A stretch of DNA of 64,000 nucleotides from Escherichia coli (GTDB lineage Bacteria > Pseudomonadota > Gammaproteobacteria > Enterobacterales > Enterobacteriaceae), in the NCBI RefSeq assembly GCF_045037415.1, contig NZ_CP173438.1; one strand, given 5' to 3'. Positions 50,001 to 53,000 of this stretch are shown in pieces. Position 1 is the first letter of the stretch, and the number at the start of each line of letters is the position of its first letter. Made by a program: the position numbers.

Positions 50001-53000
50001 CCGTGCGTATTCCGTTATACGGCGCTCAGTACCCGCAGAAAAAAGGTGTGGAAGGGTTGAGTGGTAAACGCTGCTGGCTGGCGGTCCGCAATGCGTCGCT
50101 CTGTCAGTTCCTGGAAACCAGTTTGCAGCGCAGCGGCATCGTCGTTACAACATACGAAGGGCAGGAACCGACTCCCGAAGATGTGTTAATTACTGACGAG
50201 GTAGTGAACAAAAAATGGCAGGGCAGAGCGGTAGTGACCTTCTGTCGTCGCCATATTGGTATTCCGCTGGAGAAAGCGCCAGGGGAGTGGGTACATAGTG
50301 TGGCTGCTCCGCATGAGCTACCGGCATTGTTGGCGCGTATTTATTTGATCGAGATGGAGAGCGACGATCCTGCTAACGCTCTGCCGTCGACGGACAAAGC
50401 GGTCAGCGATAATGACGATATGATGATTCTGGTCGTGGATGATCATCCGATTAACCGGCGTCTGCTGGCAGATCAGTTGGGATCGTTGGGCTATCAATGT
50501 AAAACCGCGAATGATGGCGTCGATGCGCTTAATGTACTTAACAAGAATCATATTGATATCGTGCTTAGCGACGTCAATATGCCAAATATGGATGGTTACC
50601 GCTTGACGCAACGCATTCGTCAGTTGGGACTGACGTTGCCGGTAATCGGAGTAACTGCTAATGCGTTGGCTGAAGAGAAGCAGCGGTGTCTGGAGTCCGG
50701 TATGGACAGCTGCCTGTCGAAGCCGGTAACGCTGGATGTGATAAAACAGACGCTGACGGTATATGCCGAGAGGGTCAGGAAATCGCGGGAATCGTAGGAC
50801 GGATAAGGTGTTTATGCCGCATCTGGCATTCAGTGCAAATGCCAGATGCGACGCTGACGCGTCTTATCTGGCCTACTTTAATGTAATCTGTTGAAATAAT
50901 GGGAATCGTAGGACGGATAAGGCGTTTACGCCGCATCCGGCAATCCGTGCAAATGCCAGATAAGACACTGACGCGTCTTATCTGGCCTACAGGTGATTAG
51001 TCTTTATCTGCCGGACTCAACGTCACAGAAGAGAGATAATTCAGCAGAGCAATATCGTTCTCGACACCCAGCTTCATCATCGCAGATTTCTTCTGGCTAC
51101 TGATGGTTTTAATACTGCGGTTCAGCTTTTTAGCGATCTCGGTCACCAGGAAGCCTTCCGCAAACAGGCGCAGAACTTCACTCTCTTTTGGCGAGAGACG
51201 CTTGTCACCGTAACCACCAGCACTGATTTTTTCCAACAGGCGAGAAACGCTTTCCGGGGTAAATTTCTTCCCTTTCTGCAGCGCGGCGAGAGCCTTCGGC
51301 AAATCGGTCGGTGCACCTTGTTTCAGCACGATCCCTTCGATATCCAGATCCAATACCGCACTAAGAATCGCCGGGTTGTTGTTCATGGTCAGAACAATGA
51401 TCGACAGGCTTGGGAAATGGCGCTTGATGTACTTGATTAAGGTAATGCCATCACCGTACTTATCGCCAGGCATGGAGAGATCGGTAATCAACACATGCGC
51501 ATCCAGTTTCGGCAGATTGTTGATCAGTGCTGTAGAGTCTTCAAATTCGCCGACAACATTCACCCACTCAATTTGCTCAAGTGATTTGCGAATACCGAAC
51601 AAGACTATCGGATGGTCATCGGCAATAATTACGTTCATATTGTTCATGTAATAGGCTACCTTGCTACAGCAAGCTCTTGACATAACTGTCAATGTCGCTG
51701 ATGTATTTTTCTATTCCTGGAACATCCTTCTCACGAATCAGATGTTCCAGCGTTTCACATAACTGCTTGCCGGGTACCAGATTTAGCATGGCAAATACGC
51801 CTTTAAGACGATGAGCCGTTTGGGCTAACGCAGCAAAGTCGCTGGTTGCTGCTTCAGTATATAGCCTCTTAACATCATCCGGTACTGTGTCTACAAAGAG
51901 CGCATAATAGCCGCTGGCATGGAGTTGCGCATTTTCATCTCCGCCCAGAGGCGATTCTGTCACCTCTTCCTGCGCCAGTTGCACTTCAATTAATTGTAAG
52001 ACCGCTTCCTGCATAGCGTTGCTCATATTGAAATTGACGCACAATTGACCAGGCCCAATTTCCCGTACGCCAGACTCATCATCGCTTAAAAGCAAGCCAG
52101 AGGCAGTAAGATTAGACGGATTATCCGTTAAAAAGATATCATAATCTTGACTAATTAATCTTTCATCGGGTGTGATACAGGTTGCACCCCAATTTTCTAA
52201 CTGGCGAGTGACAATATTCCGAATTTCTGCCGAAGTAACATCCACCATTACGCAGACATCATCCAGTAATCGCTCTTCTTCCTCTTCAACTTCCGGGTCA
52301 GCTGCGAGCATTTTGATATGCACAGAGTAGCGTGTACCAAGCCCATCCCGCGTTTTGATGTTTAAATGACCGCCCAGTTTACGCGCCAGTTGATCGCTCA
52401 GCCAGAATGCCAGCGGGTCCGCCTTGCCATAGCGATCGTTTTGGGTCTGGTTGATAAACGGGAAGTGCAAATTATCCATTTCATGAATGCTTACGCCTTC
52501 TCCAGTGTCCAGAATGCGGAACGTCAGGCGGTCTTCGGAGGACTCATCCTGATCAACCTCAAGGGTGATTTTTCCTAATTGCGTTGAGGTCACGGCATAT
52601 TGCATCAGTAGCAGCAAAATACGTCGTAAGGCATCGCGATCGCCGCGGCGCATATCGTGTGCTTTCAGATGATTGTTAATCAGCAGTTGCAGACCTTTAC
52701 GCTTGATGGCAGGCAACACTGAAGGCACTACTTCATCAATTAAATCCTGCACGGAGAACAGCTCCGTCTCACTTTTCCAGCTATCGTCCGCAAGCATGTT
52801 CGCTAACTGTATTTCATCGACCAGTCGCACCAGCACATCAGCCTGATTCGCCAGTTGTTTGCCTTCCGGGGCGTTGAGTTTAGCCGCGCTCTCCGCCAGG
52901 GACTGTGCGGGTTCTTTCAGCGCATCGCCAATGTTTTTCATAAAGGTCATCCGCCCCTGCTGGTTTTTCTCATACAGACGCTGCGCCTGCTTGAGTTTCT

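What the first reader, a model, noticed from the sequence alone, without database searches (positions are those of the whole stretch)
50787..50990. Direct ~90-bp REP-unit duplication that starts inside the last codons of rcsC
The first copy begins at cgg gaa tcg tag, the final three codons plus stop of rcsC. The second copy, about 115 bp downstream, repeats those same 12 nt followed by the same REP palindromes. This suggests a local duplication of the gene end plus REP, or REP-mediated rearrangement, in the convergent rcsC/rcsB terminator region. It could affect 3'-end stability of the rcsC and rcsB mRNAs.
Basis: seen in the sequence. Interest (0 to 1): 0.3.

Follow-up and report, generated by a model that had tools for sequence, protein, structure and literature searches.

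The report
Known REP array between rcsC and rcsB
The repeat is real, but it is an ordinary, already catalogued E. coli repetitive element (REP162, a BIME-2 array) whose 114-bp unit happens to include a copy of the last five codons of rcsC and varies from one to four copies between E. coli strains.

Summary
In detail: 50779-50876 and 50893-50990 are 98-nt direct repeats, 89% identical and 114 nt apart.

Each copy is a canonical REP pair: an inverted 35-nt Y REP, an 11-nt linker and a 37-nt Z2 REP. It is preceded by 15 nt that in copy 1 are the last five rcsC codons. The rcsC stop codon TAG lies inside the REP's terminal GTAG.

The array is the K-12 element REP162, a BIME-2. Both units pass the Rfam naRNA4 threshold. 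In K-12, both Z2 hairpins are listed as mapped bidirectional terminators.

Outgroups show that the RcsC ending ...RKSRES* is ancestral, so the second 15-mer was copied from the gene end. The duplication is old: 949-aa-RcsC relatives 87-95% identical to the window share it.

Among 5426 complete E. coli genomes, 979 have one unit, about 4404 have two, 30 have three and 2 have four. Hybrid units and a clean 114-bp deletion within O157:H7 show recurrent unequal recombination or slippage.

The likely role is forming and stabilising the 3' ends of both convergent mRNAs.

Verdict: real, correctly read, not novel, low interest.

The parts
47948..50797 (+). rcsC coding sequence (949 aa), ending CGG GAA TCG TAG. 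The last 19 nt (50779-50797) lie inside repeat copy 1.
   Evidence: ORF list. RefSeq annotation of 100%-identical genomes. Sequence.
50779..50793 (+). True rcsC 3' end, GAAATCGCGGGAATC (parts of codons R-K-S-R-E-S). This is the source of the duplicated flank.
   Evidence: The same C-terminus occurs in genera without a REP here.
50794..50828 (+). Unit 1 Y-type REP, 35 nt, inverted orientation. It begins with GTAGG, and its GTAG holds the rcsC stop codon TAG (50795-50797).
   Evidence: Sequence. Y = 35 nt per PMC8266576. Inside the Rfam naRNA4 hit 50797-50873.
50829..50839 (+). Unit 1 short head-to-head linker (S-type), TTCAGTGCAAA.
   Evidence: Sequence.
50840..50876 (+). Unit 1 Z2-type REP, 37 nt, ending CCTAC. 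It is orthologous to K-12 bidirectional terminator #183 (K-12 2316942-2316985, which maps to window 50839-50882).
   Evidence: inverted repeat I4. Preprint supplement. Coordinate mapping is my own arithmetic.
50877..50892 (+). 16-nt inter-unit linker, TTTAATGTAATCTGTT. It has no partner after unit 2 and its origin is unexplained.
   Evidence: Found only at this locus, one place per genome, in 4436 of 5426 genomes.
50893..50907 (+). Non-coding copy of the rcsC 3' end, GAAATAATGGGAATC (12 of 15 identical to 50779-50793).
50908..50942 (+). Unit 2 Y-type REP, 35 nt, inverted orientation.
   Evidence: Rfam naRNA4 hit 50911-50987, 70 bits.
50943..50953 (+). Unit 2 short head-to-head linker, ATCCGTGCAAA.
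50954..50990 (+). Unit 2 Z2-type REP, 37 nt, ending 6 nt from the rcsB stop codon. It is orthologous to K-12 bidirectional terminator #182 (K-12 2316832-2316874, which maps to window 50950-50992).
   Evidence: inverted repeat I5. Preprint supplement.
50997..51647 (-). rcsB coding sequence (216 aa), convergent with rcsC. Its stop codon is at 50997-50999.
   Evidence: ORF list (the mechanical ORF runs to 51692). RefSeq annotation gives 651 nt.

Best explanation
The feature is a two-unit BIME-2 array, the element catalogued in E. coli K-12 as REP162. It fills the whole spacer between the convergent stop codons of rcsC and rcsB.

Structure (shown). Each unit is a Y REP and a Z2 REP placed head to head.

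Origin (shown, except the mechanism). In a common ancestor of E. coli and its close 949-aa-RcsC relatives, a segment made of the last 15 nt of rcsC plus the REP pair was copied once, downstream of the original, with 16 nt of unknown origin between the copies. How that first copy arose is inferred only. TnpA_REP (RAYT) cleavage at C^T sites is one published route.

Copy-number change (shown). Since then the 114-bp unit has behaved like a small minisatellite. In-register unequal recombination or replication slippage between units repeatedly adds or removes whole units. E. coli has 1 to 4 units and a related lineage has 5.

Function (inferred from literature, not tested here). The REP hairpins fold strongly on both RNA strands. 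They most likely act as the termination point and 3'-exonuclease barrier for both mRNAs, in place of the classical intrinsic terminator found in related genera. Both stop codons lie within 6 nt of a REP hairpin, so the hairpins may also damp translation termination of RcsC and RcsB.
For: Anatomy:
- 98-nt repeat, 89% identical, period 114.
- REP lengths of 35 and 37 nt match published y and z2.
- Both units score 66.7 and 70 bits against Rfam naRNA4, whose gathering score is 59.5. They are the only such hits in the 64-kb window.

Identity:
- K-12 has the same 199-nt spacer.
- A 2026 preprint supplement names it REP162, class 'Convergent'.
- The published BIME-2 definition fits: y plus z2 in tandem copies, a locus-specific linker, and copy number that varies between strains.

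Direction of copying:
- ...RVRK(S/T)RES* with matching codons occurs in Pseudocitrobacter, and the same peptide ending in Erwinia, with no REP.
- Flank match of 12 of 15, P = 1.3e-5.

Age:
- The same layout occurs in a lineage 92% identical to the window and in 949-aa-RcsC lineages 87-95% identical, one of them with 5 units.
- A 948-aa-RcsC lineage has only an intrinsic terminator.

Copy-number dynamics:
- 979 genomes have one unit, 4436 have two or more, and 32 have three or more, two of which were verified as four.
- Annotated spacers are 85, 199, 313 and 427 nt.
- Hybrid units have different crossover points.
- One O157:H7 strain has an exact 114-bp deletion with 120/120 identical flanks on each side.

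Function:
- No intrinsic terminator in the spacer.
- RNA folding z-scores are -5.5 on the + strand and -7.9 on the - strand.
- Both Z2 hairpins are listed as bidirectional terminators in K-12.
- REPs between convergent genes correlate with higher expression of both genes, and REP325 acts as both terminator and stabiliser.
- A REP closer than 16 nt to a stop codon lowers translation, according to a secondary citation of Liang et al. 2015.
Against: - The 16-nt linker has no homologue after unit 2 or anywhere else in the window, so a simple tandem duplication does not explain the junction.
- C^T dinucleotides lie at or within 1 nt of both unit boundaries. With both strands and a tolerance of 1 nt this is expected by chance in roughly one case in seven, so it says nothing about TnpA_REP.
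- No expression data for this strain were examined.
- The same preprint reports that REPs do not uniformly change mRNA half-lives.
- The primary paper on stop-codon-proximal REPs could not be read, so I do not know whether rcsC or rcsB is on its list.
Confidence: 0.85

Rival explanations
1. Two independent insertions of a mobile REP pair (REPIN/BIME transposition by the RAYT transposase) landed next to each other. The shared 15-nt flank would then reflect a target-site preference or a generic BIME flanking motif, not a copy of the gene end.
For: - REP pairs are thought to be mobilised by TnpA_REP.
- The REP325 inter-unit spacer, read on the opposite strand, is GGAGGGTGCGGGAATTT-GTAGG, which shares GCGGGAAT next to a GTAGG with the rcsC end.
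- The unpaired 16-nt linker is awkward for a plain tandem duplication.
Against: - The flank matches at 12 of 15 positions in a fixed register (P = 1.3e-5) and stops abruptly.
- GGGAAT within 3 nt of GTAGG occurs nowhere else in the 64-kb window, although other REP ends are present.
- Other BIME-2 arrays (cps, rha, ygcQ/P) have unrelated spacers.
- The 40-nt linker occurs at one place per genome.
- The gene-end sequence is ancestral coding sequence.
Confidence: 0.06
2. The direction is reversed: the last codons and stop codon of rcsC were supplied by a BIME flanking motif when the element inserted, so the gene end is the derived copy.
For: The stop codon TAG is part of the REP's invariant GTAG. 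REP325 has a similar GCGGGAAT flank.
Against: Pseudocitrobacter (cgggagtcgTAGg, followed by no REP), Erwinia (...RKSRES*), Pluralibacter (...RKSREA*) and Kluyvera (...RKSRE*) keep the same C-terminus without any REP at that position.
Confidence: 0.03
3. The two units are genes for nucleoid-associated non-coding RNAs (naRNA4-like) that act with HU to condense the chromosome. Their position next to rcsC would then be incidental.
For: Both units exceed the Rfam naRNA4 gathering score on the + strand. The original naRNA4 paper reports HU binding and DNA condensation by such Y-l-Z2 RNAs.
Against: [quoted passage not shown] The Rfam model essentially recognises any Y-Z2 REP pair. No promoter-like site lies in the spacer.
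Confidence: 0.04
4. The duplication is a recent strain-specific event or an assembly artefact of this genome.
For: Short tandem repeats are prone to assembly error in general.
Against: More than 500 genomes match the 451-bp stretch at 99% identity or better, including 100% matches. 4436 of 5426 complete genomes contain the inter-unit junction. K-12 MG1655 has it. Divergent lineages have it.
Confidence: 0.01

Closest known systems
REP162 of E. coli K-12 MG1655 (rcsB-rcsC intergenic BIME)
   Same: It is the orthologous element: same 199-nt spacer, same two units, same linker and same copy of the gene end. The 451-bp stretch is 96.9% identical in K-12 strains. It is named REP162, class 'Convergent', with both Z2 hairpins listed as bidirectional terminators.
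   Different: A handful of substitutions. The window's unit-1 Y REP carries three C-to-T changes (50809, 50815, 50824). K-12's RcsC ends ...RDS, whereas the window's ends ...RES.
REP325 (yjdM-yjdN), the model BIME-2 array that encodes naRNA1-6
   Same: Tandem Y - short linker - Z2 units of 77 bp, separated by an identical locus-specific spacer. The same Rfam family matches both. Reported to act as a partly Rho-dependent terminator and an mRNA stabiliser.
   Different: REP325 has about 6 units with period 100 and a 17-nt spacer, lies between tandem genes rather than convergent ones, and its spacer is not a copy of the upstream gene's end. Here the period is 114, the spacer is 31 nt of which 15 nt are a copy of the rcsC end, and the first REP overlaps the stop codon.
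BIME-2 family as defined by Bachellier, Gilson and Hofnung and restated by Ton-Hoang et al. 2012
   Same: Y and Z2 REPs in alternating orientation, a short S linker, tandem copies that are well conserved within a locus, and copy number at a locus that varies between strains.
   Different: I could not compare the outer spacer with the published s, l and r motifs, because their sequences are not in the texts I could read. The array is not strictly extragenic, since 4 nt overlap the rcsC reading frame including its stop codon.
REPIN / RAYT (TnpA_REP) system
   Same: Each unit is an inverted REP doublet bounded by GTAG and CTAC, the substrate form recognised by TnpA_REP.
   Different: Nothing here shows transposase involvement. 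The later copy-number changes are in-register homologous events that need no transposase.
Bidirectional intrinsic terminators between convergent genes
   Same: Same position and the same presumed job. Related genera carry one at this exact spot, for example AAAATGCCGGATAAGCGTAGCGCTATCCGGCATTTT in the 948-aa-RcsC lineage.
   Different: The E. coli hairpins lack flanking A and U tracts, and no terminator-like site is detected.

Membership tests
BIME-2 | Built from Y (35 nt) and Z2 (37 nt) REPs in alternating orientation, each bounded by GTAG/CTAC | tested here: met
   50794-50828 and 50908-50942 are 35 nt. 50840-50876 and 50954-50990 are 37 nt. The units align with the REP325 Y-l-Z2 model.
BIME-2 | Short (S) head-to-head linker between REP and inverted REP | tested here: met
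   11-nt linkers at 50829-50839 and 50943-50953. Definition.
BIME-2 | Tandem copies at one locus, well conserved with one another | tested here: met
   Two units, 89% identical, period 114. Other genomes have 1 to 5 units.
BIME-2 | Number of tandem copies at a locus varies between strains | tested here: met
   979 genomes with one unit, about 4404 with two, 30 with three and 2 with four, out of 5426.
BIME-2 | Outer flanking motif of type s, l or r | not testable with these tools
   The motif consensus sequences are not in the accessible texts (one search names them only). The spacer here is locus-specific.
REP/BIME in general | Strictly extragenic location | tested here: inconclusive
   The REP's GTAG (50794-50797) overlaps the last base of the Ser codon and the TAG stop of rcsC. 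The hairpin stem itself lies outside the reading frame.
Rfam naRNA4 (RF02564) | Score at or above the curated gathering threshold | tested here: met
   66.7 and 70 bits against a threshold of 59.5, + strand.
Rfam naRNA4 (RF02564) | HU-binding RNA with a role in nucleoid condensation | not testable with these tools
   Claimed and disputed by the 2026 preprint.
Bidirectional terminator of convergent genes | RNA 3' ends of both strands map to the hairpin | not testable with these tools
   Not testable for this strain. The orthologous K-12 Z2 hairpins are listed as terminators #182 and #183.
Intrinsic (Rho-independent) terminator | G+C-rich hairpin followed by a U tract | tested here: not met
   No terminator-like site in 50600-51200 on either strand.
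Translation-attenuating REP (Liang, Rudd and Deutscher 2015) | [quoted passage not shown] | tested here: met
   For rcsC the stop codon is inside the REP's GTAG. For rcsB the stop codon is 6 nt from the Z2 CCTAC. The criterion is taken from a secondary source. The effect itself was not tested.
RAYT/TnpA_REP-generated amplification | Unit junctions at C^T cleavage sites | tested here: inconclusive
   C^T on the + strand at 50876|50877 and on the - strand at 50778|50777, the latter 1 nt outside the repeat. This is compatible with chance.

The most novel reading that the evidence does not exclude
The number of 114-bp units (1 to 5) acts as a heritable, frequently changing dial on the Rcs envelope-stress phosphorelay. 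Changing the number of hairpins, and the length over which the convergent rcsC and rcsB 3'UTRs overlap, would shift RcsC and RcsB levels and so capsule and biofilm output. On this reading, recurrent changes within clones such as O157:H7 would be selected rather than neutral.
Probability: 0.06. Interest if true: 0.5.

Novelty: already known. Interest (0 to 1): 0.12.

Why it matters
It matters little beyond bookkeeping. The element is a catalogued REP/BIME, and its class is known to vary in copy number between strains.

Three details may be useful:
- This array carries a recognisable 15-nt copy of the neighbouring gene's end inside its spacer. That is a clear footprint showing that a BIME-2 array grew by copying a local segment, flank included.
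- Both stop codons of a convergent pair of signalling genes lie within 6 nt of a REP hairpin, and no intrinsic terminator is detected in E. coli at a spot where many related genera have one.
- Natural alleles with one, two, three and four units already exist. They could be used to test how REP number affects termination, mRNA stability and translation of two well-studied genes.

Tried and rejected
- Counting alleles by BLAST coverage failed. (one-unit and synthetic three-unit queries) could not separate the classes, because the tool joins split pieces into one place at 100% coverage. I replaced this with strict per-piece E-value cut-offs and a linker-only query.
- Tandem Repeats Finder reports nothing here, because there are only 1.86 copies and 16 nt have no partner.
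- The 16-nt linker is not a diverged copy of the rcsB end or of upstream rcsC. Local alignments score no better than shuffles.
- A 'distant' BLAST with the REP325 spacer plus part of a Z2 REP, meant to test whether GGGAAT is a general BIME flank, was swamped by REP hits. The off-target loci it did reveal (cps, rha, ygcQ/P) have unrelated spacers, so I rejected a general motif. The REP325 resemblance remains unexplained.
- Liang et al. 2015 and the 2016 follow-up are not held. I used only a secondary summary.
- The single genome-contig scan returned no named E. albertii, E. fergusonii or Salmonella locus. Exact-match look-up of RcsB gave related lineages without organism names, and three of their accessions are not in the E. 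coli collection.
- C^T cleavage sites at the unit boundaries were checked and judged uninformative.
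Full report
OBSERVATION. The window holds one long direct repeat at the stated place: 50779-50876 and 50893-50990, 98 nt, 89% identical without gaps, 114 nt start to start. ORF 47948-50797 (+, 949 aa) is rcsC. The convergent ORF that starts its stop codon at 50997 (-) is rcsB. RefSeq annotation of genomes 100% identical over 451 bp confirms both. The codons CGG GAA TCG TAG occupy 50786-50797. The 12-mer GGGAATCGTAGG recurs at 50901 and nowhere else in 64 kb.

ANATOMY. Each copy has four parts:
- a 15-nt flank, GAAATCGCGGGAATC in copy 1 and GAAATAATGGGAATC in copy 2;
- a 35-nt REP that begins with GTAGG, the Y type in inverted orientation;
- an 11-nt linker;
- a 37-nt REP that ends with CCTAC, the Z2 type.

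The lengths match the published y = 35 and z2 = 37 nt. Three points follow. The TAG stop of rcsC is the TAG of the REP's invariant GTAG. Only 15 nt of the repeat lie outside REP sequence. Between the copies sit 16 nt (TTTAATGTAATCTGTT, 50877-50892) that have no counterpart after copy 2, where AGGTGA leads straight into the rcsB stop codon. Apart from that linker, the copy of the gene end and those last 6 nt, the 199-nt spacer between the two stop codons is all REP-pair sequence. No sigma-70-like promoter or intrinsic terminator is detected. Both RNA strands fold far better than shuffles, with z = -5.5 and -7.9.

WHAT IT IS. Both units exceed the curated threshold of Rfam naRNA4 (66.7 and 70 bits against 59.5) and are the only such hits in the window. 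That family was built on REP325, the model array of six Y-linker-Z2 units. K-12 MG1655 has the same 199-nt spacer with the same two units. The supplement of a 2026 preprint names it REP162, class 'Convergent'. It also lists two bidirectional terminators inside it, at K-12 2316832-2316874 (log and stationary phase) and 2316942-2316985 (stationary phase). By my coordinate mapping these are the Z2 hairpins of unit 2 and unit 1. The table derives from reference 47 of that preprint, which I could not open. The published definition of BIME-2 fits point for point: y plus z2 REPs, a short S linker, tandem copies conserved within a locus, and copy number at a locus that varies between strains.

DIRECTION AND AGE OF THE COPY. 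The 15-nt flanks match at 12 of 15 positions in a fixed register (P = 1.3e-5), and identity drops to background immediately upstream. RcsC ends ...RVRK(S/T)RES* with corresponding codons in Pseudocitrobacter, where cgggagtcgTAGg is followed by no REP. The same or nearly the same ending occurs in Erwinia, Pluralibacter and Kluyvera. So the gene end is ancestral and the spacer 15-mer is the copy.

The arrangement 'REP pair - roughly 16-nt linker - GAAATAATGGGAATC-like motif - REP' is also found in a lineage labelled E. coli that is only 92% identical to the window over the rcsC 3' end. It is found too in several 949-aa-RcsC lineages 87-95% identical, one of which has five units and a 541-nt spacer. 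The tools did not give organism names for these, and three of the accessions are absent from the E. coli collection. A lineage with a 948-aa RcsC has only a 50-nt spacer holding a classical bidirectional terminator. Many other genera likewise have an A-tract, hairpin, T-tract terminator here. The duplication is therefore old, and the BIME appears to have taken the place of an intrinsic terminator.

POPULATION VARIATION among 5426 complete E. coli genomes:
- The inter-unit linker is present in 4436 genomes, at one place per genome (median) and always at this locus.
- A strict search that only a contiguous one-unit allele can pass finds 979 genomes, or 18.0%.
- A strict search that only three or more units can pass finds 32 genomes. 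Two of them matched at two places, and both were verified as four units.
- That gives about 4404 two-unit genomes and leaves 11 unclassified.

Annotated spacers are 85, 199, 313 and 427 nt. At the positions that distinguish unit 1 from unit 2, the alleles are in-register mosaics:
- a one-unit allele that is unit 1 on the left and unit 2 on the right (2014C-3057);
- a three-unit allele whose middle unit is the reciprocal hybrid (XJ34);
- a different mosaic in SCU-113 and M18;
- one-unit alleles that resemble unit 1 or unit 2 throughout.

Within serotype O157:H7, strain PV15-279 has exactly unit 1 with 120/120 identical flanks on each side, where strain PNUSAE147325 has two units. That is a clean 114-bp deletion. 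Gains and losses have therefore happened repeatedly, at different crossover points.

MECHANISM.
- Shown: the structure, the direction of copying, its age, and recurrent in-register change in copy number.
- Inferred: the later changes arise by unequal homologous recombination or replication slippage between units that share runs of about 20 or more identical bases.
- Not resolved: how the first copy arose. TnpA_REP cleaves at C^T inside CTAC and at 'linker' C^T sites, in vitro over more than 400 nt around a BIME, and has been proposed to add BIME units. C^T sites lie at 50876|50877 and 50778|50777, but that is unremarkable statistically. The 16-nt linker matches nothing.
- Function, inferred from literature: REP325 is both a partly Rho-dependent terminator and a stabiliser of the upstream mRNA. 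REPs between convergent genes go with higher expression of both genes. About 40% of convergent REPs coincide with mapped bidirectional terminators.
- Stop-codon proximity: both stop codons lie within 6 nt of a REP. That meets the published 'closer than 16 nt' criterion for damping translation, which I know only through a secondary citation. Because unit gain and loss is in register, the gene-proximal ends of the array keep their positions in every allele. Only the number of internal hairpins changes.

COMPARISON AND NOVELTY. This is REP162 itself, a member of BIME-2 and structurally the same kind of array as REP325. The differences from REP325 are a 114-nt rather than 100-nt period, a spacer that contains a copy of the neighbouring gene's end, a convergent rather than tandem gene context, and overlap with a stop codon. 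Other BIME-2 arrays (cps, rha, ygcQ/P) each have their own spacer, which fits local amplification of 'REP pair plus local flank' as the general way these arrays grow. Nothing here departs from known biology. The captured gene end and the allele counts are new details about a known element. Interest is low.

Noticed in passing
L089 3806-4385 (K-12 REP325), compared with window 50779-50798: The REP325 17-nt inter-unit spacer, read on the opposite strand, is GGAGGGTGCGGGAATTT-GTAGG. It shares GCGGGAAT next to a REP's GTAGG with the rcsC end GGAAATCGCGGGAATC-GTAGG, although it abuts a Z2 REP rather than a Y REP. It could be chance, a shared flank motif or a target preference.
   Followed up: partly
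L098 1852-2392: A related 949-aa-RcsC lineage, 94% identical to the window over the rcsC 3' end, has five 114-bp units (541-nt spacer). The gene caller placed a 55-aa ORF inside the array, which is almost certainly spurious.
   Followed up: partly
L094, L096, L097, L100 (spacer 1852-1901): A lineage with a 948-aa RcsC (...RKTRT*) has only a 50-nt spacer with a classical bidirectional terminator, AAAATGCCGGATAAGCGTAGCGCTATCCGGCATTTT. Its stem (GCCGGATA...TATCCGGC) resembles a REP stem.
   Followed up: no
L006, L009, L050 (Citrobacter), downstream of the rcsC stop: Citrobacter species also have REP-like palindromes in the rcsC-rcsB spacer, but tail to tail with a different spacer and no copy of the gene end. 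This suggests independent colonisation of the same spot.
   Followed up: no
window 50790; L001 (K-12): K-12 RcsC ends ...RDS (GAT TCG), whereas the window and most alleles end ...RES (GAA TCG). The polymorphic base lies inside the duplicated 15-mer.
   Followed up: no
window 50809, 50815, 50824: The window's unit-1 Y REP carries three C-to-T changes relative to K-12. Two of them (50809, 50815) face each other in the stem and would keep pairing as G-U in RNA.
   Followed up: no
L004 2362-2400; L095: In the 92-95% lineage the second unit has collapsed to a single hairpin (GTAGGCCAGATAAGGCATTCGGCACTTATCTGGCCTGC). This looks like an internal deletion joining the outer arms of the Y and Z2 REPs.
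   Followed up: no
L003, L087 (E. coli E20 and CRECJHTL34): A 97-nt one-unit allele has an aberrant Y REP start (GTAGGCTTATAAGACATTT...). This may be partial conversion by Z2-like sequence.
   Followed up: no
window 54648-54741 (-): MicF sRNA, 116.8 bits, in its expected place upstream of rcsD.
   Followed up: no
window 19149, 27438-27476, 62847: Other REP ends in the window, including a tail-to-tail pair at 27438-27476. None has a GGGAAT flank.
   Followed up: no
window 50650-51100: This stretch is 100% identical to many ST131/O25b:H4-type strains (JJ1887, ZH063, SK1144 and others), so the window probably comes from that lineage.
   Followed up: no
window 50686-50936: Mechanical ORFs of 43-66 aa (50686-50886 +, 50763-50894 +, 50775-50936 -) run through the REP array. 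They are most likely spurious.
   Followed up: no
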